This document shows, piece after piece, positions 2,976-19,219 of a stretch of DNA of 64,000 nucleotides. This DNA is from Candidatus Omnitrophota bacterium. Its GTDB lineage: Bacteria > Omnitrophota > Gorgyraeia > Zapsychrales > JANLHA01. How positions within the stretch are numbered: position 1 is the stretch's first letter; each line of letters opens with the position of its first letter. The position numbers and the translations under genes were made by a program. The notes under the pieces were generated by a model, which was given only the letters and a program-made list of their open reading frames with translations, was not told the DNA's origin and made no database searches. The stretch spans positions 3,044,982 through 3,108,981 of the forward strand of contig OY759724.1 of the NCBI GenBank assembly GCA_963662715.1, given 5' to 3'.

Positions 2976-2981
2976 AAATTC

Positions 2982-4556: not shown

Positions 4557-4604
4557 AAAGTAAACAAATGAATATTTTTCGAACAATCGAAAGGGGGCAT
4601 TTGA

Positions 4605-4922: not shown

Positions 4923-4950
4923 ATCAGGATTTAAAGAGGAGGTGTAATTT

Positions 4951-5154: not shown

Positions 5155-5177
5155 TTTTATGAAGTGAGGAATATCTA

Positions 5178-5720
5178 GTGATTAACAGTATTGAATTATG
5201 CCTGAAACATAACGGAAGGGTGGACGGAAAAAAGAAGCTTTTATTTAAGCCGGGGCTTAATATTGTTATTGGCCCTAATGGCTCCGGGAAAAGTTCATTG
5301 TTAGAAGCTATCTATAACTGTCCGGATTGTATAAAACATAATAACGATAAAATGAGATATCATTATTTTAATAGTGAAACGATGAATCCGCATAGATCTG
5401 AAAAGCATTTTAAAGGAATCAGCGGATCGATTATTCGTGTGCGTGCCATGTTTTCATCTCACGGAGAAACAATGAGGGATGTTTTAAGATATATTAATTT
5501 TCACCCCGGCGATTGCCTGCTTCTTGATGAACCCGAATCAGGGCATGATTTAAAATGGATTTTAAAAATTCGCAAAGGGTTGGATGCAATTTGCAAGAAG
5601 GGAACACAGGTTATTATTGCAACACATCACCCGGTGTTTTGGAATGCGGACAATATTATTGAATTAAAAAAAAATTATCTTAAGAAAACATTAAACACAT
5701 TAAAGAAGAATCTTCCTTGA
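5178..5720 (+). CDS. Minimal ABC-type (AAA_21-like) ATPase
   Basis: 180 aa; Walker A GPNGSGKSS, Walker B LLLDEPESG, H-loop IIATHH; no transmembrane or substrate-binding partner domain. Confidence 0.6.
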   Translation: MINSIELCLKHNGRVDGKKKLLFKPGLNIVIGPNGSGKSSLLEAIYNCPDCIKHNNDKMRYHYFNSETMNPHRSEKHFKGISGSIIRVRAMFSSHGETMRDVLRYINFHPGDCLLLDEPESGHDLKWILKIRKGLDAICKKGTQVIIATHHPVFWNADNIIELKKNYLKKTLNTLKKNLP

Positions 5721-5738
5721 TTAAAAGAGTCAAATTTT

Positions 5739-6119
5739 ATGAAAAATAATGGGAACATAAATATTTCTCAAAATAAGGAAAAACAGAAGCATAATCATCG
5801 GCATTCAATAAAGGAAAGGCTTTTTTTGTTTTTTAAATGGTGGCTTGTTTTTACCGGCATTTATTCCGTCTCTTCTGTATGCCCTTTTTGCGGGAAGGTA
5901 GGCTGCCCCGTTGGTCTCGGAAGCGCTGGGGCCCTTGGAGCCTTTTTTGCTTTATTTATGCAAAATTGGAAACACCTGTTGCAAAAAATTCATTTTTTAA
6001 AAAAGGAAAAAACAGAGGTAACGAAAAAATTCGAAAAAGAAAAATTTTTCGCTAAGGGAGGAGGGGGATATGGAAAAGAAGGATTTGATAATAATCGGCG
6101 CGGGTCCGGCAGGTCTTAG
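5739..6119 (+). CDS. Hypothetical small membrane protein with CPxCG..GCP motif and Gly-zipper; Gly-rich tail
   Basis: 126-aa ORF; one hydrophobic helix, CPFCGKVGCPVGLGSAGALGAFFALF. The 3' 50 nt overlap the next gene in another frame, so the true end is uncertain. Confidence 0.35.
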   Translation: MKNNGNINISQNKEKQKHNHRHSIKERLFLFFKWWLVFTGIYSVSSVCPFCGKVGCPVGLGSAGALGAFFALFMQNWKHLLQKIHFLKKEKTEVTKKFEKEKFFAKGGGGYGKEGFDNNRRGSGRS

Positions 6120-6996
6120 TGCGGCAATTTGTGCGACGGATTTGGGCATTAAACCGCTAGTATTAGAAGAAAATATGCCCGGTGGTTTAGCCTCTGAGAT
6201 TCCTGTGTTGGAAAACTATCCGGGTTTTAGTGAAGGAATCAGCGGTAAAGATTTAATAGATAAATTGATTGAACAATGCAACAAAGCCTCGATAGAAATA
6301 CATCAATTTGAAAAAGTTTTTAATCTGAAATTTGAAGCAGACGTAAAAATTATTGAAACAGATAAAGCTCAATATAGAACCAATATTGTACTTATTGCTT
6401 CCGGAAGGCATCTCAGCATGCTTGGTGTTCCCGGTGAAAAAGAATTCAAGGGGAGAGGAGTAAGTTATTGCGCAGTATGCGACCGTGCTTTTTTTAAGGA
6501 TAGGAAAGTGTCCGTTATCGGAAAAGATGTTCATGCTGTTGAAGTTGCTTTATATTTAGCTGAATTGGCATCATTAGTGAATTTTATAAATTTAGGTAAT
6601 TGGCATAAGCCAAATGATATTTTCCTGAAAAAATTAGAAGGCCGAAATATAAATGTTCTTTCCGGGGTTGAAGTGAAGGAAATCAATGGAGACATTAAAG
6701 TAAAAACTGTGGTTTTATCGGATAAGGAAACAGGAGATATTCGCGAGATAGAAACAGACGGAGTGTTTTTACAGTTAGAAGAGGAGCCTAATAGTCAATT
6801 AGCAAAAAATGCCGGTATAAAGGTAAACGAAAAAGGGTATATCCTTGTTGATGAGAAAGGAAAAACTAATTTGGATGGTGTTTATGCCGCTGGTGACGTG
6901 ACGGATGGTTCGGTAAAAAAAGTAATAACATCTGCGGCCCAGGCATTTGTAGCTGTCAATGATATATTCGAGAAAAATCAAGGAAGGTTTCATTAA
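6070..6996 (+). CDS. Thioredoxin-reductase-like FAD/NAD(P)-dependent disulfide oxidoreductase
   Basis: 308 aa; GAGPAGLSAA FAD motif, redox CxxC (SYCAVCD), second Rossmann (VIGKDVHAVE), C-terminal GDV motif. Confidence 0.8.
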   Translation: MEKKDLIIIGAGPAGLSAAICATDLGIKPLVLEENMPGGLASEIPVLENYPGFSEGISGKDLIDKLIEQCNKASIEIHQFEKVFNLKFEADVKIIETDKAQYRTNIVLIASGRHLSMLGVPGEKEFKGRGVSYCAVCDRAFFKDRKVSVIGKDVHAVEVALYLAELASLVNFINLGNWHKPNDIFLKKLEGRNINVLSGVEVKEINGDIKVKTVVLSDKETGDIREIETDGVFLQLEEEPNSQLAKNAGIKVNEKGYILVDEKGKTNLDGVYAAGDVTDGSVKKVITSAAQAFVAVNDIFEKNQGRFH

Positions 6997-6998
6997 AT

Positions 6999-8771
6999 AT
7001 GCAGGAAAAGCGCATAGGTGTTTTTATTTGTCATTGCGGTAAGAATATTGCCGGAGGTGTGGATATAAAGGCTCTTGTCGAAAGCTCAAGAAGTCTTAAG
7101 GGAGTCGTCTTTGTTACAGAAAATAAATTTTCCTGTTCTGAAGAAGGTCAGGTTGCTGTTCAGGGTGCCATAAAGCACGAGCGTTTAGACAGAATTATTG
7201 TTGCTGCTTGTGATCCTGGGTTGCATCTACTGACTTTTCAAAGGTGCGGGCAGAAAGCGGGAATAGATTCTGCCTTCGTAGATTTAATTGATATTAGAAA
7301 ATGGACAATGCACAGTAGCCCTCATAAGGTTGATCCTCATCAAGCCTTAGAGAATTGCAAAAGACATATCGAACAAGCTGTAAAAAGGATGCGGTTAAAA
7401 CGCAAAATCCCCAGGGTTACTGTAAAAGTAAACTCTTCGGTTTTAGTTATCGGAGGAGGTGTCGCAGGATTAGAGGCCTCTTTAGATTTGGCGGATAAAG
7501 GATACAAAGTACATCTTGTTGAAAGGCTTGCGACCATCGGAGGCAAAATGGCCCTCCTTTATAAGGTCTTTCCTACAAATGATTGTGCGCCTTGTATATT
7601 AGCTCCCAAAACGGCGTACGCGAATGTGCATCCGAATATAAATTTGTTGACAAATGCGGAAGTTCAAAGCGTGGAAGGGTATATAGGAAATTACACCGTT
7701 ATCGTTAATCAAAAACCGCGTTACATTGACGAAAATAAATGTACTGGCTGTGGGTTATGTATAGAGAAGTGTCCCACAAAAATGGTTGATAACGAATTTT
7801 CCGCCGGAATTGGGGAACGCAAAGCCATCTATATTCCTTATGATCAGGCAATACCCAAAAAGGCAGTTATTGACAGTGCAAGTTGTCTGTATTTTAAAAA
7901 AGGGGCTTGCCGGTTATGCGAAAAAACCTGTCCGGCTCAGGCCGTAGATTTTGAACAACAGCCTAAGTCAATCAAGTTAAAAGTAGGCGCGATAATTGTT
8001 GCTACGGGTTTTGATGAATATAATCCTGTGTCGAAAACGGAGTATGGTTATGGACGTTACAAAAATGTTATCACCCAGTTTCAGCTAGCAAGATTTTTAG
8101 ATATAGACGGCCCTACGAAAGGAAAACTTTTAAGACCTTCAGACGGCAAAGAACCTAAAAATATTGTTATGATTCAATGTGTGGGCTCAAGGGATGAAAA
8201 TGCGAATAAATATTGTTCTGCTGTTTGTTGCATGTATGCCTTAAAGCACGCCCAGATAATAAAAGAGATGGTTTTGCCCAATACCGAAATTTATATTTGT
8301 TATATTGACATACGCACCGCAGGAAAAGATTTTGAGGAATATTATAAATATACAAGGGGATTGGGAATTAATTTTATTCGCGGAAGACCGGCTGAGATAG
8401 CAGAAAATGCCAAGACACGAAATCTTATTTTAAAAGTTGAAGATCCTGATATCAATGCCTTGATTAAAGTCGAAGCGGATTTAGTTGTGTTGTCCTGCGC
8501 GACTGTGCCTTCCAAAGGGACACAAAATCTTGCCGGGATACTAGGGATACATTTGGATGAAAATGGATTTTTTAAAGAAGTCCATCCTAAACTGCGTCCG
8601 GTAGAAACGAATGTCCGCGGCATTTATATTTGCGGTTCTGCACAGGGCCCCAAAGATATTCCGAATTCAATTGTCCAGGCAAAAGCGGTGGCTTCCTGCG
8701 CGGATGGCGAACTAAGAAAAGGAGAATTAGAACTTCCCGAAGCTATTGTAAAAGCAAATAAAGTCCCTTAA
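6999..8771 (+). CDS. HdrA-like flavin/FeS protein (heterodisulfide reductase subunit A family)
   Basis: 590 aa; MvhD-like Cys domain (GVFICHCGKNIAGG), FAD motif VIGGGVAGLEAS, two ferredoxin motifs (CTGCGLCIEKCP, CRLCEKTCP), and the HdrA-signature CxGxRDx6CSx2CC (CVGSRDENANKYCSAVCC). Confidence 0.85.
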   Translation: MQEKRIGVFICHCGKNIAGGVDIKALVESSRSLKGVVFVTENKFSCSEEGQVAVQGAIKHERLDRIIVAACDPGLHLLTFQRCGQKAGIDSAFVDLIDIRKWTMHSSPHKVDPHQALENCKRHIEQAVKRMRLKRKIPRVTVKVNSSVLVIGGGVAGLEASLDLADKGYKVHLVERLATIGGKMALLYKVFPTNDCAPCILAPKTAYANVHPNINLLTNAEVQSVEGYIGNYTVIVNQKPRYIDENKCTGCGLCIEKCPTKMVDNEFSAGIGERKAIYIPYDQAIPKKAVIDSASCLYFKKGACRLCEKTCPAQAVDFEQQPKSIKLKVGAIIVATGFDEYNPVSKTEYGYGRYKNVITQFQLARFLDIDGPTKGKLLRPSDGKEPKNIVMIQCVGSRDENANKYCSAVCCMYALKHAQIIKEMVLPNTEIYICYIDIRTAGKDFEEYYKYTRGLGINFIRGRPAEIAENAKTRNLILKVEDPDINALIKVEADLVVLSCATVPSKGTQNLAGILGIHLDENGFFKEVHPKLRPVETNVRGIYICGSAQGPKDIPNSIVQAKAVASCADGELRKGELELPEAIVKANKVP

Positions 8772-8805
8772 CTTTAATTATCGGTGATTTGAGAGGAGAT
8801 CCGAC

Positions 8806-9060
8806 ATGTTAAAACAAGAACAAGAAAAAATGGAAACAAAATGCAAGAAAATTATTGCGGAGCAGTTAGGAGTAAAATTCGAAGAATTAAAGCCAGATGC
8901 TTCTTTTGCTGATGATCTTGGTGCTGATTCTTTGGATTTGGTAGAACTTATTATGGCGTTAGAAGAAGAATTTAGTATTGAAATTCCTGATGAAGAAGCT
9001 GAAAAAATCAAAACAGTTGGCCAGGCAATAGAATATGTAAATAAAAGAATAGAGAAATAA
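8806..9060 (+). CDS. Acyl carrier protein (canonical AcpP-type, second copy in the window)
   Basis: 84 aa; DSLD phosphopantetheine-attachment motif ([18 protein letters not shown]); about 75% identical over the core to the fab-cluster AcpP at 40072; strong SD (GAGAGGAG) 7 nt upstream of the ATG at 8806. Confidence 0.85.
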
Positions 9061-9086
9061 ATATTTTAAAATCAGGAGGGACTGCC

Positions 9087-9356
9087 ATGGCAGAGGTTTA
9101 TGTGGAAGAATTTATGTCACCCGGATGTGTCGGTTGTCCGGTGGTAAAGGAAATGCTTAAAGTTTTATCAGAAGAAGTAACGGGCGAGGTAACGATAGAA
9201 GAAGTCGACATCACAGTTGATACGGCACGGGCATCTCAATACGGCGTCATGTCTGTTCCGGCTATAGCTATTAACGGTGAGCTTAAATTTATGGGCGTGC
9301 CTAAAAAAGAAGAATTAAAGCAGGCGCTCGTTGAAGGGCTTAAGGCAGATGAATAG
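9087..9356 (+). CDS. Small thioredoxin-fold (glutaredoxin-like) protein
   Basis: 89 aa; CVGCP active-site-like motif, thioredoxin-fold length; SD AGGAGG upstream. Confidence 0.7.
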   Translation: MAEVYVEEFMSPGCVGCPVVKEMLKVLSEEVTGEVTIEEVDITVDTARASQYGVMSVPAIAINGELKFMGVPKKEELKQALVEGLKADE

Positions 9357-9891
9357 TGAAGAAAAAAATAGTGATTTGGGAATAACGGTTTCCATATCGG
9401 AATGTGAGCCAAATTTTAAATTTGAGGTTTTATCTCATCCTGATGCCAGCGGATTAAATGCCTGCTTCAATTGCGGGACATGTACGGCAGGATGTCCTAT
9501 TCATGAAGTTTTTCCTGAATATAACCCCAGGAAACTGGCAAAGATGGTAAAGCTTGGTATGAAAAAACAGGTTTTAAGCAGCCCCTATATTTGGTATTGC
9601 GCTACCTGTCATAATTGCGAACAACGCTGCCCCCAAAATGTTAAATTTTTCAATATTTTGAATGTCTTGAAAAATTTGGCAGCCAGACAAGGTTATGCGC
9701 CGTCCTGCTGGATTCAACAGACCGAACAAATAGCAAAAACAGGCATAGTCTTTCCGACAGAAGATAGTTGGATCAAAAGAAGACAGGAAATGTCTCTCCC
9801 TTTTTTAAATCTAGATGGGGAAAAGGCAAAGAGAATAATTGAATCAAGCGGGATGAATGAAATTAAATCGAAGGTTAATTTGAATGAGTAA
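9349..9891 (+). CDS. HdrC-like 2x[4Fe-4S] ferredoxin subunit
   Basis: Track ORF starts at TTG 9331; ATG at 9349 overlaps the preceding stop (ATGAATAG). Motifs CFNCGTCTAGCP and CATCHNCEQRCP. Confidence 0.8.
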   Translation: MNSEEKNSDLGITVSISECEPNFKFEVLSHPDASGLNACFNCGTCTAGCPIHEVFPEYNPRKLAKMVKLGMKKQVLSSPYIWYCATCHNCEQRCPQNVKFFNILNVLKNLAARQGYAPSCWIQQTEQIAKTGIVFPTEDSWIKRRQEMSLPFLNLDGEKAKRIIESSGMNEIKSKVNLNE

Positions 9892-10759
9892 ATATGCTTT
9901 ATTTTTAGGTTGCACGACCCCAACTCAGGTACCGCAGTATGAGTTGTCCGCAAGATGGGTTTGTAAATATTTTGGCATTGAATTAATCGATATTAAAGAT
10001 TTTGTTTGCTGTGGTATTAATCAGGTTAATCTGGATATTGAGACAGGTTTTTCCTTGGCAGCTATGAATTTGGCTTTAGCGGAATCCGAAAAATTAGATG
10101 TTTTAACGCTTTGCGCCGCCTGCACCGGCGCCCTGGCTGAAACAATCGAAAAACTGAAGGACGAAGCAAGCAGAGATAAAGTAAACAAAAAATTAAAGAC
10201 GGTCGGATTAAAATATACAGGCCAATCTAAAGTAAAACATATATCGAGAGTTCTTTACGAAGATATCGGGTTAGAAACAATAAAAAAGGGAATAAAGAAA
10301 GATTTATCCGCACTGCATGTGGCACCTCATTACGGCTGCCATTATTTAAAACCAAAATCTGCTTTTGGTGATTTTGAAAAACCCGATAATCCCAAAAGGC
10401 TTCACCATCTCATTTCGGCTGCCGGGGCCCATCCTATTGAATATGAGACGCTTGGTTTATGCTGCGGGGGCAAAACTTTTCCTGTTACTAAAAATCTGGC
10501 TCATTCATTGGTACAAAAAAAGTTTGATAATTTGATGGATAAAGAAGCGGATGCGATGGTTCTTCAATGTCAGACTTGTTATCTTATGTATAGCGGCCAA
10601 CAAAAAGAGATAAATGAAAATTATGGCAAACGATATGATTTTCCGGTAATTCTGTATCCCCAGCTTCTCGGATTGGCTCTGGGCGCGGAGCCCAAGAAAG
10701 ATTTAGGCCTTGATTTAAACGAAATTTCAGTAAATCGAATTTTGGATAAGATATTATAA
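9884..10759 (+). CDS. HdrB-like protein with two CCG domains
   Basis: 291 aa; two cysteine-rich CCG signatures (FVCCGINQ and GLCCGGKTF .. QCQTCY); start overlaps the HdrC-like stop. Confidence 0.85.
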   Translation: MSKYALFLGCTTPTQVPQYELSARWVCKYFGIELIDIKDFVCCGINQVNLDIETGFSLAAMNLALAESEKLDVLTLCAACTGALAETIEKLKDEASRDKVNKKLKTVGLKYTGQSKVKHISRVLYEDIGLETIKKGIKKDLSALHVAPHYGCHYLKPKSAFGDFEKPDNPKRLHHLISAAGAHPIEYETLGLCCGGKTFPVTKNLAHSLVQKKFDNLMDKEADAMVLQCQTCYLMYSGQQKEINENYGKRYDFPVILYPQLLGLALGAEPKKDLGLDLNEISVNRILDKIL

Positions 10760-10788
10760 ATAAGCGGTAATTGTGACGGAGATAGTGC

Positions 10789-11475
10789 ATGAGCATAAAA
10801 GAAAATTATTTGAAAATTAGAAAAAAAATTCCGGATTATGTCCAGATAGTTTTAGCTGCCAAGATGAAGACTTCTGAAGAAATCAAAGAGGCTATTGATG
10901 CCGAAGCAACAATAATAGGTGAAAATTACGTACAGGAAGCTGAAAAAATATATGAGGCGTTAGGAGAAAAGGCTAAAAAAATTAAATGGCATATGATCGG
11001 TCCTTTGCAGAAAAATAAGATTAACAAGGCAGTAAAAATTTTTGATTGTATTCAGACGGTTGATTCTATTGAACTCGCTGATGCTATACATAAAAGAGCT
11101 GAGGTAATAAAAAAAGAAATGTCTGTTTTTATAGAGGTAAATATCGGCAACGAAATGACAAAGGCAGGCGTTAAACCGGAATACGGAGTGGTTGAAAAAT
11201 TAGCGCTACATATCGCAGGATTATTTTATTTAAAATTGGAAGGACTTATGACAATCGGCCCTAGAGTCGGCAACCCGGAAGACATCCGTCCATATTTCAA
11301 AGCAGTAAAAGAAATTTTTGATAAATTGCAGAGCGCGGGTATACCCAATACAGATTTAAAATATTTGTCCATGGGGATGTCCAATTCATACAAAATAGCC
11401 ATTGAGGAGGGAGCGAATATTATAAGGTTAGGAACTATTATTTTCGGAGCGCGCAAATGTGATTTAAGAAACTAA
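10789..11475 (+). CDS. yggS: YggS-family PLP homeostasis protein
   Basis: 228 aa; single alanine-racemase-N-like TIM barrel, typical YggS length and conserved K region (VQIVLAAK); C-terminal IIRLGTIIFGAR. Confidence 0.85.
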   Translation: MSIKENYLKIRKKIPDYVQIVLAAKMKTSEEIKEAIDAEATIIGENYVQEAEKIYEALGEKAKKIKWHMIGPLQKNKINKAVKIFDCIQTVDSIELADAIHKRAEVIKKEMSVFIEVNIGNEMTKAGVKPEYGVVEKLALHIAGLFYLKLEGLMTIGPRVGNPEDIRPYFKAVKEIFDKLQSAGIPNTDLKYLSMGMSNSYKIAIEEGANIIRLGTIIFGARKCDLRN

Positions 11476-11513
11476 GGGCATGAGATAAACACGGGTAGTG
11501 ATGGGGCAAAATT

Positions 11514-12143
11514 ATGAAAATAAAACCATTTGAAGAACATGTGGATCAATATGAAGATTGGTTTGAGAAAAATTATTGGGTCTATCAGTCAGAACTTCAG
11601 GCAGTAAAAGAATTGTTGCCTAAGCAAGGAAACGGCATTGAAATTGGTGTAGGAAGCGGTCGTTTTGCAGATCCCTTGGGAATACGTTTAGGTGTTGAGC
11701 CTTCGCCTAAAATGAGAGCACTGGCAAAAGCTCGAGGGATAGAAGTTATTGATGGAGTAGCCGAAGATATCCTTTTTAAAAATCCTCGATTTGATTTCGT
11801 GCTGATGGTCACAACGATCTGTTTTCTGGATGATATAGAAAAAGCATTTAAAAAAATCCATAGGATTCTAAACCCAAGCGGGCATTTGGTCATAGGATTT
11901 ATCGATAAAAACAGCCCTGTTGGAAAGATTTACCAGAAACACAAAAACGAAAGCGAGTTCTATAAAGTTGCAACTTTCTATTCTGTAGATAAAGTTGTGT
12001 CTTATTTAAAAAATGCCGGATTTAGCAACTTTGTATTTAAGCAGACTATTTTCAAAAATTTAAAAGAAATTAAAGACATTGAACCTATTCAGGATGGTTT
12101 TGGTGCGGGTTCTTTTGTCGTCATTAGAGCTTTAAAGGAATGA
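11514..12143 (+). CDS. Class I SAM-dependent methyltransferase
   Basis: 209 aa; motif I GIEIGVGSGRFA and post-I acidic residue. Confidence 0.75.
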   Translation: MKIKPFEEHVDQYEDWFEKNYWVYQSELQAVKELLPKQGNGIEIGVGSGRFADPLGIRLGVEPSPKMRALAKARGIEVIDGVAEDILFKNPRFDFVLMVTTICFLDDIEKAFKKIHRILNPSGHLVIGFIDKNSPVGKIYQKHKNESEFYKVATFYSVDKVVSYLKNAGFSNFVFKQTIFKNLKEIKDIEPIQDGFGAGSFVVIRALKE

Positions 12144-12147
12144 AGGT

Positions 12148-12507
12148 ATGAAAGTCGCAGTCATTGGAGCATCAAATAAACCGCATCGGTATTCTTATCA
12201 GGCTGTGGTTCTTTTAAAAGAAACAGGACACAAAGTTTATCCCATTCATCGAAAAATAAAAGAGATTGACGGGATTCCAGTTGTTCCAACCATTGAAGAG
12301 GTTAATGACTTAATTGATACGGTTACATTGTATATAAATGCTGTTTTTTCTAATGCTATCGGCAAAGATATTATTGCTAAAAAGCCCAAAAGAATAATTT
12401 TTAATCCCGGAGCTGAGAATCTGGAATTAGCAAATGAGGCGAGAGAGCAGGGTATAGATACAATTAATGCCTGCACATTAGTTATGCTAAAAACAGGTCA
12501 GTTTTAA
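12148..12507 (+). CDS. CoA-binding domain protein
   Basis: 119 aa; KVAVIGASNKPHRYSY N-terminus typical of the CoA_binding_2 family. Confidence 0.75.
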   Translation: MKVAVIGASNKPHRYSYQAVVLLKETGHKVYPIHRKIKEIDGIPVVPTIEEVNDLIDTVTLYINAVFSNAIGKDIIAKKPKRIIFNPGAENLELANEAREQGIDTINACTLVMLKTGQF

Positions 12508-12519
12508 GGAGGGAGTAAA

Positions 12520-12684
12520 ATGTCCATAATGAAAATTATTATAGGAATTTTAATCGGAGCATTGCTGGGGAGTGTGATGGGATATTTCGGTAAATGCTCA
12601 AGCGGTGTTTGCCCTTTGACAAGTACACCGCTAAGAGGGGCTCTTTGGGGAGCTTTCTTGGGATTAATGTTTGGATTAACTTAA
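12520..12684 (+). CDS. Small (54 aa) membrane protein with CxxxxC motif and glycine zipper
   Basis: Not in the ORF track (under 60 aa). ATG at 12520 preceded by AGGAGGGAG; MSIMKIIIGILIGALLGSVMGYFGKCSSGVCPL..GALWGAFLGLMFGLT*. Resembles the Cys/Gly segment of the 5739 ORF. Confidence 0.45.
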   Translation: MSIMKIIIGILIGALLGSVMGYFGKCSSGVCPLTSTPLRGALWGAFLGLMFGLT

Positions 12685-12704
12685 TGTAAAACGAGGAGGA
12701 GAGG

Positions 12705-13043
12705 ATGCTGGAAACAAATTTGAAACATTTAGAAACAAAAGATGAGGTAGAAGAATTATTAAAAAATAATGAAAAAGTCATGATTTGCTGTGGCCGAATG
12801 GGGCCGATGTGTATTCCTGTTTATGGGATTATGGAAAAATTAGAATCGCAATATTCACAGATTCAGTTCAGGGATATGGATTTTGATATCCCTGTTGCCT
12901 CTTTTATTAAAGATTTGCCCGAATGTGCTTCGTTTACGGGATTGCCTTTTACGGTCTATTTTAAGAACGGATCGATCGTTAAGGCGACAACCAGCATTCA
13001 GAATGAAAAGCAAATAGTTGATATTTTAGAAAAAATTTTTTAG
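12705..13043 (+). CDS. Thioredoxin-like protein with atypical active site
   Basis: 112 aa; thioredoxin-fold length, Cys pair in CCGRMGPMC at the usual CxxC position; SD GAGGAGGAGAGG upstream. Confidence 0.6.
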   Translation: MLETNLKHLETKDEVEELLKNNEKVMICCGRMGPMCIPVYGIMEKLESQYSQIQFRDMDFDIPVASFIKDLPECASFTGLPFTVYFKNGSIVKATTSIQNEKQIVDILEKIF

Positions 13044-13045
13044 AA

Positions 13046-13543
13046 ATGAGCATGAATGAATCCTTTCATAAATGTTCAAAGTGTGGGAATAATTTGCCGG
13101 AAATAAATATTTTCGTTATTGACGACGAATATATTTGTATTCATTGTTTATATGGTAAGGCCGAACCTTTCCCGATTTATCCTATAGGTATCGTGCAAAA
13201 TGATCTAAGGCGTAACAGAAAAAATTTTGGTACGGTTGGCAAAGGCGGCCTATCATGTATTAAGCTGTTCCCATCACAAAAGCCATTTCTGTATAAAATT
13301 GAAGAAGAAAGGTTTTTGACGATTGTTTATTATCTTCATCAAGCAAAGCAGATTAAATCAGTCTTTAAAAGAGGATTGGACGGGAAGGAAGTCGGTGTTT
13401 TCTCTTCCCGTACGCCGGATAGGCTTTCACGCATTGCTATTCAAAATGTTAATCTGGTGAAAGTTGAAGGGACTAATCTTTACGTTGAGGGATTAGATGC
13501 TATCAATGGCAGTCCGGTTTTAGACATAAAACTTAAAATATAG
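13046..13543 (+). CDS. TsaA/YaeB-like (UPF0066) domain protein with N-terminal zinc ribbon
   Basis: 165 aa; CSKCG..CIHC ribbon, then GVFSSRTPDR..GLDAINGSPVLDIKLKI matching the TsaA-like beta-barrel signature. Confidence 0.7.
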   Translation: MSMNESFHKCSKCGNNLPEINIFVIDDEYICIHCLYGKAEPFPIYPIGIVQNDLRRNRKNFGTVGKGGLSCIKLFPSQKPFLYKIEEERFLTIVYYLHQAKQIKSVFKRGLDGKEVGVFSSRTPDRLSRIAIQNVNLVKVEGTNLYVEGLDAINGSPVLDIKLKI

Positions 13544-13562
13544 TGATCAAAAAGGGTGAATT

Positions 13563-14135
13563 ATGAAAATATCTATAATTTTTCACAGTGTATGCGCAAA
13601 TAATTATTTGATGGCTAAGGCTTTTTATGAAAATTTAAAAATCAAAAAACAAGATGTTTCATTGTTTAGAGTTGCTGATCCCGATTGGGCAGAACAAGAA
13701 AGTGTTCCTCTCGTGGCAAAAAAAAATTTGAGAAATATGATGGCTCTTCCCATGGCTACTCCAGAAGCCATGTTTGAAAGCGATCTTATTATAATGGGTT
13801 CGCCGACGTATTTTGGAAATGTATCGGCCGAAATGAAAATTTACATGGACTCCATTGCTAAATATTGGATAAAAGCAGAATTAGCAGGGAAAAGGCTTGC
13901 TGCTTTTACCTCAACAGGCAATCCCCAAGGCGGCGGAGACTTGTGTCTTCAGGTTATTCACACATTTGGAATGTATATGGGAATGCTTTGCGTACCTGTT
14001 CCAACGACTTTAATTTCAGGTGCAGATATCCATCCCTTTGGCATCATGCATTATTCCTATTCGAAGTACGGCGAAAAATTAGATAAAAAAACACAAACAG
14101 TAATAGAAAATTTTTCTGAGTATTTAATACAATAA
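13563..14135 (+). CDS. Flavodoxin-like fold NAD(P)H-dependent FMN reductase family protein
   Basis: 190 aa; MKISIIFHS.. N-terminus, MGSPTYFGNVSAEMK flavin-binding loop. Confidence 0.75.
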   Translation: MKISIIFHSVCANNYLMAKAFYENLKIKKQDVSLFRVADPDWAEQESVPLVAKKNLRNMMALPMATPEAMFESDLIIMGSPTYFGNVSAEMKIYMDSIAKYWIKAELAGKRLAAFTSTGNPQGGGDLCLQVIHTFGMYMGMLCVPVPTTLISGADIHPFGIMHYSYSKYGEKLDKKTQTVIENFSEYLIQ

Positions 14136-14270
14136 ATCAAAGGTTGATGATATTATTATTTTAAAATTTTTTGATTATAAAAAATGGGGGGTTGAGGGTA
14201 ATCTCACCATTTCGCTTAAGAAAAATAATAAATAAAAAAATTAGCCTGCGGCGCTTATAGCAAGATAAAA

Positions 14271-14355
14271 GGTGTTTAACATGGCGCCGTTTTATGTGTG
14301 ATTTTGGGGTGATTTGTTAAACATCTAGGAGGTGGTGTTTAACACGTGTTAAACA
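14271..14355. repeat. Iteron-like set of four TGTTTAACA / TGTTAAACA 9-mers, including a perfect 20-bp palindrome TGTTTAACACGTGTTAAACA
   Basis: 9-mers at 14273-14281, 14315-14323, 14336-14344 and 14347-14355; the last two form a perfect palindrome around a central CG (14336-14355). The first copy is bracketed by the inverted GC hexamers CGGCGC (14249-14254) and GCGCCG (14284-14289). Confidence 0.6.
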
Positions 14356-14544
14356 TTAAGAGAAGCAAGAAATTTTAAAAAACTCGTCGTTGTGCTCTTG
14401 ACATCTGATGGGCTATATGGCACACTTGCACTCTATCCGCATTAATAATTACTCTTCGTTGAATCTCAATCCAAAGATGTGGTTTTACTAGAAAATAATC
14501 AAGCATCTAGGTTGTAACATATATAAAATTTAAAGGATTTAAAA

Positions 14545-14586
14545 GGCCATCCCAGATATCTGGCTTATAGGGGTGGTCTTTTTTCT
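14545..14586 (+). terminator. Bidirectional terminator-like hairpin containing a perfect 12-bp palindrome CCAGATATCTGG
   Basis: GGCCATCCC..GGGGTGGTC outer stem (two G-U pairs) around the inner palindrome 14552-14563, followed by CTTTTTTCTT; the opposite strand also has a T-rich tail. Confidence 0.4.
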
Positions 14587-14728
14587 TGGCCACTTGCTTT
14601 AAATTACGCAAAATGCCAGCCAAGAAAAATTTTTTTAAAAAAGTATGGCATATTTTTGCAAACAAATGACATATATATGTAGGAGCAAGTTGTACGATAG
14701 ATCTTTATTTACTTGAAAAGAGGTTGTT

Positions 14729-14926
14729 ATGCATAGCAACGAAATGAACGCATTATTTGAAATATACAATGAAGCAAAGAACCGGATTTTGTTATATGTT
14801 GAAGCTTCTGTGCATCCCGAGCAATTTAAAGCGCTACGCAAGCTTATTCTTGATGAACTTGGCAGAAGCGGGGCTGAAGGTAAGGTGCGGAATTTATTGA
14901 GTGAAAAGGACAGGGCAGGCAAGTAA
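14729..14926 (+). CDS. Hypothetical protein (65 aa), first gene of the recombinase module
   Basis: AAGAGG SD 8 nt upstream of the ATG; no recognisable domain. Confidence 0.4.
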   Translation: MHSNEMNALFEIYNEAKNRILLYVEASVHPEQFKALRKLILDELGRSGAEGKVRNLLSEKDRAGK

Positions 14927-14957
14927 TGAATAAAGCGAAGGGGGTGGTGTAAAATGA

Positions 14958-15335
14958 ATGAAAAAGAATGAATTTTATAAAATTCAGGCGGAAGCGTTCT
15001 GGGATTATGAAAAGAGGTTTTCGTATAGGAATTTCAATAAACATAACATCAAAGACCCGGTGAAATTCCTACACGGTAACAAGTCCGAGCTAGAGCGAGG
15101 TAACTTTAAAGATTACGACAGAATAAAACTGTTCAATCAATGGGCAACATCAAAAGACATTACAGGCGCAGACCGTCAGGAAATATGGAAAATAGTGAGA
15201 ACTACAAAAAAGCAGGATTATGTTATCACGGAAGGAAGTGAAGAGTTTATCAGGCTTTCAGAAGTTATCAGCATTTTGCATAATGAGAACATGAAGCAGT
15301 TAGGTGATATGCTATCCAAGAAAAAATGTGGTTGA
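14958..15335 (+). CDS. Hypothetical protein (125 aa)
   Basis: ORF with AGGGGGTGGTG SD-like sequence upstream; no recognisable domain. Confidence 0.45.
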   Translation: MKKNEFYKIQAEAFWDYEKRFSYRNFNKHNIKDPVKFLHGNKSELERGNFKDYDRIKLFNQWATSKDITGADRQEIWKIVRTTKKQDYVITEGSEEFIRLSEVISILHNENMKQLGDMLSKKKCG

Positions 15336-15367
15336 CAATAACTGTAAAGCAACGTAAAGTATTTCTT

Positions 15368-15553
15368 ATGAAAATATACACGGTTACAAAAACTGCGGAA
15401 AAACTAGGAATATCACGCCAGTCGCTCCATCAATGGATTAAAAAAGGATGGGTAAAACCTAAATACGATTACAGGAATTATCCTGTATTTACTGCTGACG
15501 ATATTAAAAAAATTCAGCAATGGATGGGAACACTAAAAGAATCATGCGAGTAG
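15368..15553 (+). CDS. Small helix-turn-helix DNA-binding protein (excisionase/MerR-like; candidate recombination directionality factor)
   Basis: Track ORF 15326..15553; likely start ATG 15368 (MKIYTVTKTAEKLGISRQSLHQWIKKGWVKP..). HTH_17-like; sits immediately 5' of the recombinase, which overlaps its end. Confidence 0.6.
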   Translation: MKIYTVTKTAEKLGISRQSLHQWIKKGWVKPKYDYRNYPVFTADDIKKIQQWMGTLKESCE

Positions 15554-17193
15554 CCATTTACACAAGAGTATCAACAGAAGACCAAGCCCGTGAGGGGACT
15601 TCTTTGGAGGTTCAGCGGGAGTTTCTTGAGAATTACGCAAAGCATCAGGGGTGGTCTATATATTATCCGGAAAAAGGTCGGATTTACGAAGATGACGGTT
15701 ATTCTGGAAATCTAAGCAGACGACCTGCTTTGAATAAACTTCTTAGCCACGCAAACCAGAAAAAATTTGATATTGTACTTGTCTATAAAATCGACCGTTT
15801 CGCAAGAAACAACAGGCTTCTGCTTAATCTTGTCGAAGACCTCGACCAAAGGGGAATAGGTTTTAAATCAGCTACGGAGTCATTTGATACCGTTACTGCC
15901 GCCGGCAAAATGGCGCTGTCAATGCTTGGAACGGTAGCGCAGTTTGAGCGGGACAGGATTATTGAACGGGTATTTCCGGGGATGATAAAAGGCGTGGAGC
16001 GAGGGAACTGGCAGGGTGCAAGATATTCGCCCTATGGATATTTTTATAATAAACAAAAGAAGCTTCTTGAAGTGGTGCCGGAGGAAGCAAATGTTGTAAA
16101 AATGATTTATACAATGTATCTGTCAGGGCAAAGCACGCCGCAAATAGCAGGGTATCTTTACGATAAAAAATATAAAACCAGAAGCGGCGGGAAATTTCAT
16201 ACAAAACTGGTCGCAGATATTTTAAAAAATCAGTTATATATCGGCAATCTTGTATGGAACAAGCATCATTACGATAAGACGAAAAAGACCCTCAAAGGCA
16301 ATCGCTATGTTAAAAACGATCCGGAAAAAGTTGTAATCTCTAAAGGAAAACATATACCGATAATTGACCGGGAAGATTTTGAAGCCGTACAGCAAAAGCT
16401 TGAAAAAAGCAGAAAAGGCATGGGAAACAGAAAGGGATGTAAAGAATATCCTTTGACAGGTATCATCAAATGCGCTAAATGCGGGCATAATTTCCATGGC
16501 TCACTTCTGACAGCATCAAGGGAAAATAAAAAAACGAAACTGAAAAGAAGATATTACAGATGTTCCGGCAGAGCAACGCACAATGTTAGATGTGATAATG
16601 TTTTTGTGAAAGCAGTTGAGGTAGAGAAAGAAGTTTACAGAATCTTGGAAACAATACGGCTGGAAGATATAAATGAGGCGTTACGGACTTCAGCATCATC
16701 AAATAATATAACGGAAGCAAACGAAGAAGTGATCGACAAGATCCATGAATTGAAGATGGATTTAGCGAAGAATTTAAAAAAGCAAGAAAGGCTCGGGAAA
16801 ATCTTTACTGAAGGGCTGATTGCAATGGAAGCCTACAAGCCCCAGGTCATTCCCCTCAGAGATGAAGAGAAGGAAATAAAAGGTAAAATCAAAAAGCTTG
16901 AGCTGAACTTAATTGAAAGAGAACGTTCAGAAGAATACAAAAAATTAGTAACAGCCGTTATTGAACACATTGACGCAGTCAGGAATATGGACATCGCAGG
17001 CAAGAAAGGACTGCTGAAAATAGTGTTTAAAAACATAATAATTGAAAATGGAAAGATAACAGATTTCGAGCTGTATCAACCGTTTAAAAAGCTATACGAA
17101 GGAGCAGCGATAAAGTGCCAAATGCAGGAAATAAAAGAACTTATGACAATTCCGGAGTGCGTGTGTACATGCGTACTTACGGATGCCAGATGA
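15544..17193 (+). CDS. Large serine recombinase (resolvase/invertase catalytic domain + recombinase domain + zinc ribbon + coiled coil)
   Basis: N-terminus MRVAIYTRVSTEDQ with catalytic Ser, ..VYKIDRFARN.. motif, and a zinc ribbon CAKCGH..CSGRATHNVRC. About 550 aa; the track ORF begins 24 nt earlier at 15520. The last 79 nt overlap miaB. Confidence 0.9.
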   Translation: MRVAIYTRVSTEDQAREGTSLEVQREFLENYAKHQGWSIYYPEKGRIYEDDGYSGNLSRRPALNKLLSHANQKKFDIVLVYKIDRFARNNRLLLNLVEDLDQRGIGFKSATESFDTVTAAGKMALSMLGTVAQFERDRIIERVFPGMIKGVERGNWQGARYSPYGYFYNKQKKLLEVVPEEANVVKMIYTMYLSGQSTPQIAGYLYDKKYKTRSGGKFHTKLVADILKNQLYIGNLVWNKHHYDKTKKTLKGNRYVKNDPEKVVISKGKHIPIIDREDFEAVQQKLEKSRKGMGNRKGCKEYPLTGIIKCAKCGHNFHGSLLTASRENKKTKLKRRYYRCSGRATHNVRCDNVFVKAVEVEKEVYRILETIRLEDINEALRTSASSNNITEANEEVIDKIHELKMDLAKNLKKQERLGKIFTEGLIAMEAYKPQVIPLRDEEKEIKGKIKKLELNLIERERSEEYKKLVTAVIEHIDAVRNMDIAGKKGLLKIVFKNIIIENGKITDFELYQPFKKLYEGAAIKCQMQEIKELMTIPECVCTCVLTDAR

Positions 17194-18470
17194 ATGAATA
17201 TGACTCGGAACTGATCCGTTCTATTCTGATTCAGGAAGGCTATTCCTTTGTCGAATCCGCGGAAGACGCGGAGATCATTCTCTTAAATACCTGTTCTGTC
17301 CGGGAAAACGCCCACCGCAAAGTCATCGGGCACATCCACGCCCTGCAGCATTCTTTAAAAGAACGCCCTTTCTTGTTGGGCATATTGGGCTGCATGGCCG
17401 TTAACCTGAAGGACGATTTGCTGAACGACCCTTCATTAAACATCAACTTCGTTATCGGGCCGGACGGGTACCGCCGCCTGCCGGATATCATTTCCCGGAC
17501 ATCTTCCCGGCATAATAAAGCGGAAGACACATGCCTCTCGGGACTGGAAACCTATACGGGCATTTCTCCCAGCAGAATCAGCCAGGTGAATGCCTGGGTG
17601 GCTGTCATGCGCGGATGCAACAATTTCTGCACATTCTGCATTGTTCCTTACACCAGAGGGAGGGAAAGAAGCCGGCCCAAACAGGACATCCTCCAAGAAA
17701 TCCAGAATCTCGTTGCCCGGGGCTATAAACAGGTGACTTTGCTGGGACAGAATGTCAACTCGTATCAAGACTCCCGGACAGACTTTGCCGACCTGTTGGA
17801 AGCTGTCAGCGAAGTGCCGGGGCTTGAACGGATCCGGTTTATGTCGCCCCATCCCAAAGACTTTCTGGACCGGGTCATAGATGTTGTCGCACACAACCCA
17901 AAAGTATGTGAACATCTCCACTTGCCGCTTCAGGCAGGGAACTCCCGGGTGCTTCAGCTCATGAACCGGACATACGACCAGGAACAATTCTTGAAGTTAG
18001 TGGATAAGATCCGCAACGCCTGCCCTGATGTGGCTTTAACCACAGATGTTATCGTTGGATTTCCAACGGAAACCGCAGAAGAATTCGAAGATACGGTAAA
18101 AGTGATGCGGCAGGTGGAATTTGATGCGGCTTTCATTTTCAAATACTCTCCCCGCAAGGGGACCATAGCTCAAAAAAAGTATCCGGACGATGTGCCGGAG
18201 GAAGAAAAAACCCGGAGGATTGTTCATCTGAACGAACTGCAAAAAGACATATCATTACGCAAAAATCAACAGTTGGTCGGTACGGTACAGGATGTCCTTA
18301 TTGAAGATCTTCATTCCCAGCGTTCGCAAAACGATATCCAGGGCCGGACCCGGGGAAACAAACTGGTGATTGTTTCTGATTCCCGGTCGCTGATGGGAGA
18401 GACTTTGCGGGTAAAGATATCTGATGCCAGCCCGCATGTTTTGAAAGGTCAGCTTGAGGCCAGCCAATAA
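17115..18470 (+). CDS. miaB: tRNA-i6A37 methylthiotransferase MiaB
   Basis: 451 aa; N-terminal MTTase motif ..TYGCQMNEYDSE.., radical SAM CxxxCxxC (CNNFCTFC), C-terminal TRAM domain. Start uncertain: GTG 17115 (has GGAG SD), GTG 17157 or ATG 17169. Confidence 0.9.
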   Translation: MPNAGNKRTYDNSGVRVYMRTYGCQMNEYDSELIRSILIQEGYSFVESAEDAEIILLNTCSVRENAHRKVIGHIHALQHSLKERPFLLGILGCMAVNLKDDLLNDPSLNINFVIGPDGYRRLPDIISRTSSRHNKAEDTCLSGLETYTGISPSRISQVNAWVAVMRGCNNFCTFCIVPYTRGRERSRPKQDILQEIQNLVARGYKQVTLLGQNVNSYQDSRTDFADLLEAVSEVPGLERIRFMSPHPKDFLDRVIDVVAHNPKVCEHLHLPLQAGNSRVLQLMNRTYDQEQFLKLVDKIRNACPDVALTTDVIVGFPTETAEEFEDTVKVMRQVEFDAAFIFKYSPRKGTIAQKKYPDDVPEEEKTRRIVHLNELQKDISLRKNQQLVGTVQDVLIEDLHSQRSQNDIQGRTRGNKLVIVSDSRSLMGETLRVKISDASPHVLKGQLEASQ

Positions 18471-18517: not shown

Positions 18518-19219
18518 CTACGTGTTTTGTCTTCTGAAGATCGTTCCAATAAGGCCAAAGCCAAATAATAATATGCTTGCTGGCTCAGGGACAACCGGAG
18601 ACTCGTATTCTAATTGCAAATACGGACTATAACCTTCGAGTCCGTCTTTTGTAATACCTCCTATTGTTGCGTTTGCGGTCATAGATTCTGCGATCGCTAA
18701 CATTAAACTTAATTGATCGTCTGAATCCAGAAGTTGGTCATTCGCTTCAGCAGGAATTCCGCCGGCAAATAAATCCCAATGCAGCCAGGAAGCCGTGCGG
18801 GGATACGTTTGGGTATCTAAAACTCCTGAATCCGGGCCGGGGGCATTCTGCCATGTTATGGTTGATTCCTGCCACGAGTCATCTGACACAAAAAAAACTG
18901 AAGATTGTATGTCTTGACCACCGCCGGCAGAATAGGTTTGTATGTATGCGTAAAAATCCGCGCCTATTAAATTAGCTCCATTGGGAATACTGCTTAAATC
19001 AAATTTAAAATACGCATACTCCAAAATGTGTGTCGTTGTCGTCGATTGATCCATAATTTCAAACCCGCCTGTACCTCCATGATTATCAGTCGGAAAAAAA
19101 CTGCTTGTGTACGAATCTTCTACAGCAACTAAATTGACAATCGTTGAAGCTGACACTGTAGAAGCCGGCACGCCCCAAAAGCTTAGAAAGAACAAAAATC
19201 CAGTAATTAATTTTTTCAT
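18518..19219 (-). CDS. Secreted PEP-CTERM-anchored protein
   Basis: Signal peptide MKKLITGFLFFLSFWGVPASTVSA; C-terminal VPEPAS + hydrophobic helix + RRQ (PEP-CTERM sorting signal). Confidence 0.75.
   Translation of the reverse strand: MKKLITGFLFFLSFWGVPASTVSASTIVNLVAVEDSYTSSFFPTDNHGGTGGFEIMDQSTTTTHILEYAYFKFDLSSIPNGANLIGADFYAYIQTYSAGGGQDIQSSVFFVSDDSWQESTITWQNAPGPDSGVLDTQTYPRTASWLHWDLFAGGIPAEANDQLLDSDDQLSLMLAIAESMTANATIGGITKDGLEGYSPYLQLEYESPVVPEPASILLFGFGLIGTIFRRQNT

What the first reader, a model, noticed from the sequence alone, without database searches (positions are those of the whole stretch)
14249..14356. Iteron-like TGTTTAACA repeats with a perfect 20-bp palindrome in the non-coding region upstream of the recombinase module
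Four copies of a 9-mer in alternating orientation occur within 85 bp (14273-14281, 14315-14323, 14336-14344 and 14347-14355). The last two form the perfect palindrome TGTTTAACA-CG-TGTTAAACA. The first copy is bracketed by the inverted GC hexamers CGGCGC/GCGCCG. No gene lies within about 370 bp downstream. Such arrays are typical of recombinase or repressor operators, the attP-derived core of a serine-integrase element (central dinucleotide flanked by inverted half-sites), or replication-origin iterons. Their position next to the integration module makes an element-end or regulatory role plausible.
Basis: seen in the sequence. Interest (0 to 1): 0.55.

Follow-up and report, generated by a model that had tools for sequence, protein, structure and literature searches.

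The report
Conserved phased 9-mer DNA-binding array
Four copies of a short palindromic DNA word, spaced in whole helical turns, are real and are conserved in a second Omnitrophota genome, but they lie outside the neighbouring integrase element, so they are most likely a docking platform for an unidentified DNA-binding protein and not a recombination site.

Summary
TGTTWAACA occurs four times, at 14273, 14315, 14336 and 14347, and nowhere else in the 64 kb. The last two copies form a perfect 20-bp palindrome. Start-to-start spacings are 42, 21 and 11 bp, which are whole helical turns.

The serine-recombinase module is a compact 2.5-kb integrative element spanning about 14665-17177, inserted at about codon 10 of miaB. 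Joining its two flanks rebuilds a canonical MiaB N-terminus. A 94%-identical copy of the element's left end (L047) sits in a different flank. The array lies about 310 bp outside the element. Seven loci with homologous recombinases carry no such array.

A homologous array does exist in another Omnitrophota MAG (L025), beside a restriction-modification/defence cluster with no recombinase. Between the two genomes the 9-mers are 96% identical, the spacers about 41%, and the site 1 to site 3 distance is 63 bp in both. That is the pattern expected of selected protein-binding sites.

The best reading is a cooperative operator- or iteron-type binding array for a protein encoded elsewhere. The same word forms true iterons next to Rep_3 and RepA_N genes in unrelated plasmid contigs. 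The binder and the function remain unknown. Interest is modest.

The parts
14260..14272 (.). Conserved 13-mer GCAAGATAAAAGG, immediately 5' of site 1
   Evidence: 12 of 13 positions are identical, at the same offset, in L025.
14273..14281 (.). Site 1, TGTTTAACA
   Evidence: It is conserved in L025 at position 508 with the central base flipped (TGTTAAACA).
14315..14323 (.). Site 2, TGTTAAACA, 42 bp after site 1
   Evidence: The L025 counterpart is at 549 (TGTTAAACG), 41 bp after its site 1.
14336..14355 (.). Sites 3 and 4, which abut (centre-to-centre 11 bp) and form the 20-bp perfect palindrome TGTTTAACA-CG-TGTTAAACA. This is the likely nucleation site for two adjacent dimers.
   Evidence: The L025 counterpart at 571-590 has an AA centre. 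Site 1 to site 3 is 63 bp in both genomes.
14136..14248 (.). AT-rich stretch (25% GC) between the FMN-reductase stop codon and the array. Homology to the syntenic relative L046 ends at 14136.
14542..14636 (+). Two tandem terminator-like hairpins with T-runs, lying between the array and the old miaB 5' end. These are context and are not shown to be part of the array's function.
   Evidence: fold z = -2.83.
14638..14664 (+). Displaced original 5' fragment of miaB, encoding ..KKYGIFLQT. It is the left flank (attL side) of the integrase element and marks the array as lying outside that element.
14665..17177 (+). Compact serine-integrase element: 65-aa, 125-aa and 75-aa excisionase-like HTH genes plus a large serine recombinase gene at 15520/15544-17193. 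It is a neighbour of the array and not part of it.

Best explanation
The region is a cis-acting cluster of binding sites for a sequence-specific DNA-binding protein that is encoded elsewhere and is not part of the adjacent recombinase element.

Each site is the 9-bp palindromic box TGTT-W-AACA, and all four lie on one face of the helix. Inferred mechanism: a dimeric protein recognises each box. Two dimers bind side by side and cooperatively on the abutting pair, sites 3 and 4, whose centres are 11 bp apart. That is the geometry of an Arc or ParR-type dimer of dimers, or of a Rep operator. The outlying boxes two and six turns upstream (sites 2 and 1, the latter with its conserved 13-mer) extend or loop the complex into a higher-order nucleoprotein structure.

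The array sits in low-GC, probably horizontally acquired DNA at a synteny breakpoint. It acts either as a multi-site operator or insulator for this intergenic region upstream of the old miaB start (my estimate about 0.35), or as orphan iterons or a centromere of a plasmid-like integrated element served in trans (about 0.25).

What is shown: the repeats are non-random, they are in helical phase, they are conserved between genomes at the sites but not in the spacers, and they are independent of the recombinase element. What is inferred: that a protein binds, its oligomeric state, and the biological output.
For: The motif is non-random and unique to this region.

A homologous array exists in Omnitrophota MAG L025. 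It has the same order of elements: the 13-mer, site 1, about 41 bp, site 2, about 22 bp, site 3, then site 4 eleven bp on. Site positions are 26/27 identical and the 13-mer 12/13, against 41% in the spacers (27% in shuffles). Site 1 to site 3 is exactly 63 bp in both genomes.

The central base of site 1 flips from T to A with no compensating change in site 2. This argues for each box being recognised on its own, and against selection for pairing between sites.

The same word, at 11- and 21-22-bp spacing, lies beside Rep3_N/Rep3_C genes (L059, L064) and a RepA_N gene (L078). Arrays of this word in that phasing are therefore plausibly used as protein-binding iterons elsewhere.

The array lies outside the integrase element and is absent from loci with homologous recombinases.
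Against: No candidate binder is encoded next to the array in either genome.

No sigma-70-like promoter overlaps the array in the window. L025 has one at 594-621, but it is not conserved.

There is no rep or par gene and no DnaA box nearby.

Only two homologous examples are known, and their gene contexts are unrelated. The regulated target cannot be inferred, and a small mobile or relic DNA module remains possible.

The arrays collected from public data were selected for the motif itself, so their contexts are analogies and not homology.
Confidence: 0.55

Rival explanations
1. The array belongs to the serine-recombinase module. It would be an att core derived from attP, an accessory site, or the operator of the element's 75-aa HTH/excisionase-like protein.
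For: It is physically close, 310-370 bp upstream of the element and its first gene. It is a palindrome with a central dinucleotide. An HTH protein is encoded in the element.
Against: The element's ends are at about 14665 and 17177, where the flanks rejoin into an intact MiaB N-terminus. L047 carries the element's left end at 94% identity with an unrelated left flank and no motif. Relatives L086-L088 and L043-L045 lack the array. The L025 array has no recombinase beside it. The central CG is self-complementary, so it gives no polarity, and it is not conserved.
Confidence: 0.04
2. The array is a set of relic or orphan replication-origin iterons, or a ParR-type centromere, left by a plasmid-like integrative element that once occupied this site. 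It would be either no longer functional or served in trans.
For: Arrays of the same word lie next to Rep_3 and RepA_N initiator genes. A 25%-GC stretch lies immediately upstream. The surrounding DNA is low-GC at a synteny break. Larger relatives of the neighbouring integrase element carry Replic_Relax genes. The 5' end of miaB is a recurrent insertion site, as shown by the L050 scar.
Against: There is no rep or par gene and no DnaA box in either genome's neighbourhood. All four boxes are perfect while the spacers have diverged almost to random, which indicates ongoing selection and not decay. No annotated plasmid or phage matches the region.
Confidence: 0.22
3. The array is an RNA-level element. 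Two stem-loops (site 1 with site 2, site 3 with site 4) in the 3' UTR of the FMN-reductase operon would act as a terminator, stabiliser or small RNA.
For: The array folds better than shuffles (z = -2.45). The palindrome alone gives z = -3.66. It lies downstream of an operon and upstream of tandem terminators.
Against: Any set of near-palindromes folds well. No U-tract follows the palindrome hairpin. There are no Rfam hits. In L025 the site 1 central base changes without compensation in site 2, which breaks that pair. In L025 the array is not downstream of a same-strand operon. The 190-nt stretch up to the terminators is not structured (z = -0.63).
Confidence: 0.08
4. The array is the end of a transposon, or a MITE-like dispersed repeat, made of multiple transposase-binding sites as in Tn7, Mu or IS21 ends.
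For: The uneven multi-site layout spans about 85-140 bp. Both copies sit in acquired-looking DNA next to mobile elements: an IS-type transposase fragment in L025 and the integrase element in the window. A Patescibacteria MAG carries at least 10 dispersed arrays of the same word.
Against: There is no second, inverted array, no target-site duplication and no transposition genes in the 64-kb window or the 8-kb L025 locus. Homology between the two copies is confined to about 100 bp.
Confidence: 0.08
5. The 20-mer is a variant parS centromere for a ParB-like protein.
For: TGTTT[AA]CACGTG[TT]AAACA equals the canonical parS TGTTTCACGTGAAACA with 2 bp inserted in each half. This is read directly from the sequence.
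Against: The CACGTG core is not conserved (it is CAAATG in L025). The insertion changes the half-site spacing from 8 to 10 bp. Isolated single boxes are equally conserved. The window holds no canonical parS within 2 mismatches.
Confidence: 0.03

Closest known systems
Iterons and operator inverted repeats of Rep_3 / RepA_N theta-replicating plasmids
   Same: A short word is repeated in helical phase (11 and 21-22 bp), mixing single boxes with an inverted pair. The identical word TGTTTAACA forms such arrays directly beside Rep3_N/Rep3_C and RepA_N genes in L059, L064 and L078. An AT-rich stretch is adjacent.
   Different: There is no initiator gene, DnaA box or other replication gene near the window array or the L025 array. 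There is no sequence homology to those plasmid loci beyond the word itself. The window locus is chromosomal.
Multi-dimer operators and centromeres of ribbon-helix-helix proteins (Arc operator, MetJ met-boxes, ParR parC)
   Same: Short palindromic boxes of 8-9 bp are each suited to one dimer. Neighbouring boxes lie one helical turn apart so that dimers can bind cooperatively. Additional in-phase boxes are present.
   Different: No RHH gene or any candidate binder is adjacent. The comparison rests on geometry only and no binding was tested.
Serine-integrase att sites (attP/attB with inverted half-sites around a central dinucleotide)
   Same: It is an inverted repeat around a 2-bp centre and lies near a large serine recombinase gene.
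   Different: It lies 310 bp outside the mapped element junctions. The central dinucleotide CG is self-complementary and is not conserved. The array is absent next to homologous recombinases.
Chromosomal parS (TGTTNCACGTGAAACA)
   Same: The outer TGTTT/AAACA and the central CACGTG of the window 20-mer match parS.
   Different: Each half carries 2 extra bp. The core is not conserved in the homologous array. Single boxes are conserved on their own.

Membership tests
Serine-integrase attachment site / element end | Lies at the junction between element DNA and target DNA | tested here: not met
   The junctions map to about 14664/14665 and 17177/17178, from the reconstructed MiaB N-terminus and the L047 homology edge at 14660. 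The array is at 14273-14355.
Serine-integrase attachment site / element end | Non-palindromic central dinucleotide that gives polarity | tested here: not met
   The centre is CG, which is self-complementary, and it is AA in the L025 homologue. The requirement itself is established knowledge for phiC31 and Bxb1-type integrases.
Serine-integrase attachment site / element end | Co-occurs with homologous recombinases | tested here: not met
   L047, L086, L087, L088, L043, L044 and L045 have no cluster of the motif. The L025 array has no recombinase in its 8 kb.
Plasmid/phage origin iterons (Rep_3, RepA_N type) | Three or more copies of one word in helical phase | tested here: met
   There are four copies at spacings of 42, 21 and 11 bp, and seven copies in L025.
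Plasmid/phage origin iterons (Rep_3, RepA_N type) | Cognate initiator gene adjacent | tested here: not met
   Pfam scans of all neighbouring ORFs in the window and in L025 found no Rep family. Genes beyond about 20.7 kb in the window were not individually scanned.
Plasmid/phage origin iterons (Rep_3, RepA_N type) | AT-rich unwinding region and DnaA box nearby | tested here: inconclusive
   A 25%-GC stretch is present at 14136-14248. No DnaA box (TTATCCACA, up to 1 mismatch) occurs in 14000-14800 or in L025 1-900.
Transcription-factor operator | Dyad-symmetric sites that are conserved while the spacers drift | tested here: met
   Sites are 26/27 identical against 41% in the spacers.
Transcription-factor operator | Overlaps a promoter, or has its cognate regulator adjacent | tested here: not met
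   No sigma-70-like site overlaps the array in the window. The L025 site at 594-621 is not conserved. No regulator gene is adjacent. Omnitrophota promoter types are not covered by the scan.
parS / ParB centromere | 16-bp palindrome TGTTNCACGTGAAACA with a conserved core | tested here: not met
   The window palindrome is 20 bp, with 2 extra bp per half. The core is CAAATG in L025. The window holds no parS within 2 mismatches.
Intrinsic terminator / structured RNA | Stable stem followed by a U-tract, or a covarying structure, or an Rfam match | tested here: not met
   No U-tract follows the palindrome. There are no Rfam matches. Site 1 changes without compensation in site 2. The GC-bracket hairpin gives z of about 0.
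Transposon end / MITE | Paired inverted ends, a target-site duplication, or multiple genomic copies | tested here: inconclusive
   There is no partner array in the 64-kb window or in the 8-kb L025 locus. The rest of the 3.36-Mb source genome could not be searched.

The most novel reading that the evidence does not exclude
The array is a previously undescribed, Omnitrophota-specific cis element: a phased platform of TGTT-W-AACA boxes bound by a dedicated, still unknown protein. It would mark or organise the boundaries of horizontally acquired islands, for example as an insulator or silencing nucleation site, an orphan centromere, or a landmark that attracts insertions. Both known copies sit at junctions between low-GC acquired DNA and mobile elements.
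Probability: 0.12. Interest if true: 0.55.

Novelty: new member of a known kind. Interest (0 to 1): 0.3.

Why it matters
Almost nothing is known about cis-regulatory or architectural DNA elements in Candidatus Omnitrophota, which is a largely uncultured phylum. A short, perfectly conserved and helically phased box array gives a concrete bait for identifying its binding protein, for example by DNA-affinity capture or by heterologous one-hybrid screens. The side result is practically useful for annotation. The adjacent 2.5-kb serine-integrase element has base-resolved ends and a recurrent target, the 5' end of miaB-type methylthiotransferase genes, which it repairs with its own coding end. That corrects the natural but wrong assumption that nearby repeats are its att sites.

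Tried and rejected
1. Rex (TTGTTAA-N4-TTAACAA), CcpA/LacI-type, TnrA/GlnR, LexA (GAAC-N4-GTTC; Verrucomicrobia TGTTC-N4-GAACA) and sigma-54 consensus sequences were compared by eye from memory. None fits the 9-mer or its spacing. These were leads only and are not counted as tests.

2. Integron attC/attI: GTTTAAC and GTTAAAC do match RYYYAAC and GTTRRRY. However, the spans (18-81 bp) and the absence of cassettes or of a tyrosine integrase among the ORFs scanned near the array argue against it. I did not pursue it further.

3. dif/Xer: there is partial similarity to the XerD arm (ATGTTAAA) but no 11-6-11 architecture.

4. Small ORFs or a shared peptide between the window and L025 around the array: none.

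5. Rfam on both loci: nothing above noise.

6. A conserved GC-bracket hairpin around site 1: not supported.

7. A literature search for the motif returned only primers and incidental strings.

8. blastn of the array against annotated plasmids and phages, and of the Rep3-linked loci against plasmids: no matches. The viral-contig pattern scan gave 0 hits.

9. The genome-wide (42 loci) and metagenome (35 loci) motif scans: apart from L025, no locus is homologous beyond the word itself. Their contexts are used only as analogy.

10. A possible second, older miaB 5' fragment at 14416-14445 (TATGGCACACTT, similar to TATGGCATATTT): too weak to claim.

11. An inverted similarity between a promoter-like stretch in the window (14172-14192) and one on the minus strand of L025: not significant by BLAST, so it was dropped.

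Full report
**1. The observation**

- TGTTTAACA and its complement occur four times in the 64-kb window, all within 14273-14355. Shuffles give a mean of 0.58 and never reach 4.
- The 20-mer has no other match even when 3 mismatches are allowed.
- One-mismatch variants elsewhere occur at background frequency (22 found against 15.4 expected), and none lies in this intergenic region.
- With the local low-GC composition, the chance of three further copies within 83 bp of a first is about 7e-10.

Two refinements follow from reading the sequence. First, TGTT-W-AACA is itself a 4-1-4 palindrome, so the "orientation" of a copy is only its central base. Second, the start-to-start spacings of 42, 21 and 11 bp are 4, 2 and 1 helical turns, so all four boxes lie on one face of the helix.

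The CGGCGC/GCGCCG bracket around site 1 is present. It does not produce a fold better than shuffled sequence in the window (z = -0.3) or at the equivalent place in L025 (z = 0.06).

**2. What surrounds the array**

- *Upstream block.* Bases 1-14135 form a low-GC block (36-40%) with strongly positive GC skew. All its genes are on the + strand and are housekeeping or redox types, ending with an FMN reductase at 13563-14135.
- *GC jump.* From about 17,150 the GC content rises to 45-55%. The genes there are miaB, a PEP-CTERM protein and nadA. MiaB and recombinase relatives with names come from Candidatus Omnitrophota.
- *Syntenic relative.* A contig from another assembly, L046, matches window 3899-14136 at 92-93% identity. 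The match stops exactly at the FMN-reductase stop codon and L046 continues into unrelated genes (PASTA, cupin, FeoAB). Its GC content makes the same jump there. Two shorter contigs, L048 and L049, also diverge right after that stop codon.
- *Conclusion.* Everything from 14136 rightwards, including the array, is not part of the conserved block.

**3. The recombinase module is a small integrative element with mappable ends, and the array is outside it**

The module has four genes:

- a 65-aa gene at 14729-14926;
- a 125-aa orphan gene at 14958-15335, whose only database match is itself;
- a 75-aa MerR/excisionase-like HTH gene at 15326-15553;
- a large serine recombinase gene at 15520-17193, with Resolvase, Recombinase and Zn_ribbon_recom domains and a phrog_95 integrase match at E = 5e-124.

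Three lines of evidence fix its ends.

- *(a) A second copy of the left end.* A 560-bp metagenome contig, L047, is 94% identical to window 14660-15097, but its first ~120 bases are unrelated.
- *(b) Rejoining the flanks.* Bases 14638-14664 encode ..KKYGIFLQT. The sequence from 17178 encodes YGCQMNEYDSELIRSIL... Joined, they give ..KKYGIFLQTYGCQMNEYDSE.., which is the canonical N-terminus seen in some twenty MiaB homologues (MKKVYIxTYGCQMNEYDSE). The element therefore spans about 14665-17177 and sits at about codon 10 of miaB.
  - It supplies a substitute start: the public annotation begins miaB at ATG 17169 (P0008).
  - The integrase ORF reads across the right junction and stops at 17193.
- *(c) The same habit in relatives.* In L087 (Ca. 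Kaelpia imicola, 68% aa identity) and L088 (72%), the recombinase is directly followed by, and overlaps, a UPF0004/radical-SAM methylthiotransferase gene.
  - In L086 and L087 it ends a larger element that carries a Replic_Relax gene.
  - A related genome, L050, shows a decayed miaB 5' fragment (MKSIFLKTYGWQMD) and a 370-bp remnant in front of an intact miaB. That is a scar of an earlier insertion at the same site.

The array therefore lies about 310 bp to the left of the element's left end. It sits in a 500-bp AT-rich stretch between the end of the conserved block and the displaced miaB 5' fragment. Two tandem terminator-like hairpins at 14542-14636 separate the array from that fragment (z = -2.8).

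**4. Does the motif travel with the recombinase?**

It does not. None of the seven loci carrying homologous recombinases (L047, L086-L088, and the viral contigs L043-L045) has a cluster of the 9-mer. They hold only scattered single near-matches.

A perfect palindrome with a self-complementary CG centre is also unsuitable as a serine-integrase crossover site. Those sites rely on an asymmetric central dinucleotide for polarity. This point rests on established knowledge and was not tested here.

**5. The array is conserved elsewhere, in a different context**

A scan of 185,579 species-representative genomes for TGTTTAACANNTGTTAAACA gave 42 loci. Most are isolated hairpin-like palindromes consistent with chance.

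One locus, L025, from an Omnitrophota MAG (JAHFFY010000030.1), is homologous beyond the word: window 14260-14356 aligns with L025 495-591 at 71% over 99 nt. The order of elements is the same in both:

- GCAAGATAAA(A/G)GG followed by box 1;
- about 41-42 bp to box 2;
- about 21-22 bp to box 3;
- 11 bp to box 4.

L025 also has three extra boxes, and four of its boxes form a 38-40-bp near-perfect palindrome.

Conservation is concentrated in the boxes. The three in-register boxes are 26/27 identical and the 13-mer is 12/13 identical. The spacers are 41% identical, against 27% for shuffles. Box 1 to box 3 is exactly 63 bp, or six helical turns, in both genomes.

Two details speak against alternative readings. 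The central CG of the window palindrome is AA in L025. The central base of box 1 flips without a compensating change in box 2. Both argue against a parS-like core and against selection for RNA or cruciform pairing. Both fit independent recognition of each box.

L025's array lies between an IS-type transposase fragment and the 3' end of a type I R-M / Fic / DUF4917 cluster. That locus has no recombinase, rep, par or transposition genes and no second array within its 8 kb.

**6. What such arrays do elsewhere (analogy only)**

A metagenome scan for three boxes in the observed layout returned 35 loci. None is homologous to the window beyond the word itself.

- In L059 and L064 the arrays lie beside Rep3_N/Rep3_C initiator genes, and in L078 beside a RepA_N gene. 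There they are ordinary plasmid iterons at 11- and 21-22-bp spacing.
- In one Patescibacteria MAG, at least ten dispersed copies lie in ordinary intergenic regions next to uvrB, recF, secA and ftsK-like genes.

These results show that this word in this phasing is plausibly used as a protein-binding array. They do not identify the binder in this case.

**7. Mechanism**

The best-supported reading is a cis-acting binding platform for a protein encoded in trans.

- A dimer binds each palindromic box.
- Two dimers bind cooperatively on the abutting pair, whose centres are 11 bp apart. This is the geometry of Arc and ParR-type operators or of Rep operators.
- The in-phase boxes two and six turns away extend or loop the complex.

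I put about 0.55 on this general class. Within it I split roughly 0.35 for a regulatory operator or insulator and 0.25 for orphan iterons or a centromere of an integrated plasmid-like element. The second of these overlaps the rival I score separately at 0.22.

The evidence against both sub-readings is the following:

- no promoter-like site overlaps the array in the window;
- no cognate gene is adjacent;
- there are no DnaA boxes nearby;
- only two homologous copies are known.

The other rivals I rate as follows: RNA element 0.08, transposon end or MITE 0.08, recombinase-linked 0.04, parS variant 0.03.

**8. Novelty and verdict**

The repeats are real, non-random and under selection. They are an operator- or iteron-type array, which is a known kind, with an undescribed box in a poorly studied phylum. 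The proposed tie to the integration module is not supported.

Interest is modest at 0.3. The most novel reading my evidence does not exclude is an Omnitrophota-specific architectural element that marks island boundaries. I give that about 0.12.

Noticed in passing
window 14665-17177 (genes 14729-14926, 14958-15335, 15326-15553, 15520-17193); miaB 17169-18470; displaced miaB 5' fragment 14638-14664: This is a compact 2.5-kb serine-integrase element inserted at about codon 10 of miaB. The integrase ORF reads across the right junction and ends inside miaB, and the element supplies a replacement miaB start. The same recombinase lineage sits directly before methylthiotransferase genes in L087 and L088. 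In L086 and L087 it ends larger elements that carry Replic_Relax genes.
   Followed up: yes
window 1-14135; L046 1-10574; L048; L049: This low-GC block (36-40% GC) has strong GC skew and housekeeping or redox genes all on one strand. It is 92-93% identical to L046 and 88% identical to L048 and L049. In every case homology stops at the FMN-reductase stop codon and continues into different DNA. The closest MiaB found, from the same metagenome assembly as L046 (L050), is only 68% identical. The block may be a horizontally transferred island, but this is not resolved.
   Followed up: partly
L050 5530-6000: A decayed miaB 5' fragment (MKSIFLKTYGWQMD...) and a 370-bp AT-rich remnant lie immediately upstream of an intact miaB. 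This looks like a scar of an earlier insertion at the same target site.
   Followed up: partly
window 14542-14636: Two tandem terminator-like hairpins, each followed by a T-run (fold z = -2.8), lie directly before the old miaB start. What they terminate is unknown.
   Followed up: partly
L002, L005, L018, L019, L023, L030, L034, L035, L042 (MAG JAZQJV01); L003, L024, L039; L028: A dispersed intergenic repeat family has the form TGTTCAC..CCAGATG.. followed by TGTTWAACA boxes at an 11-bp period. One Patescibacteria-labelled MAG carries at least 10 copies, next to uvrB, recF, secA and ftsK-like genes. Its function is unknown.
   Followed up: partly
L025 571-610: A 38-40-bp near-perfect palindrome is built from four of the 9-mer boxes. 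A promoter-like site (TTGATT-16-TATAAT, minus strand, 408-381) lies nearby, with what looks by eye like a hairpin plus T-run about 125 nt downstream. Together they resemble an sRNA-like unit.
   Followed up: no
window 18518-19219 (-): A CBM96/PEP-CTERM protein gene lies between miaB and nadA. These two genes are adjacent in the relative L050.
   Followed up: no
window 14958-15335: The 125-aa protein of the integrase element is an orphan. Its only match among 5.8 billion clustered proteins is itself, although L047 encodes the start of a close homologue.
   Followed up: partly
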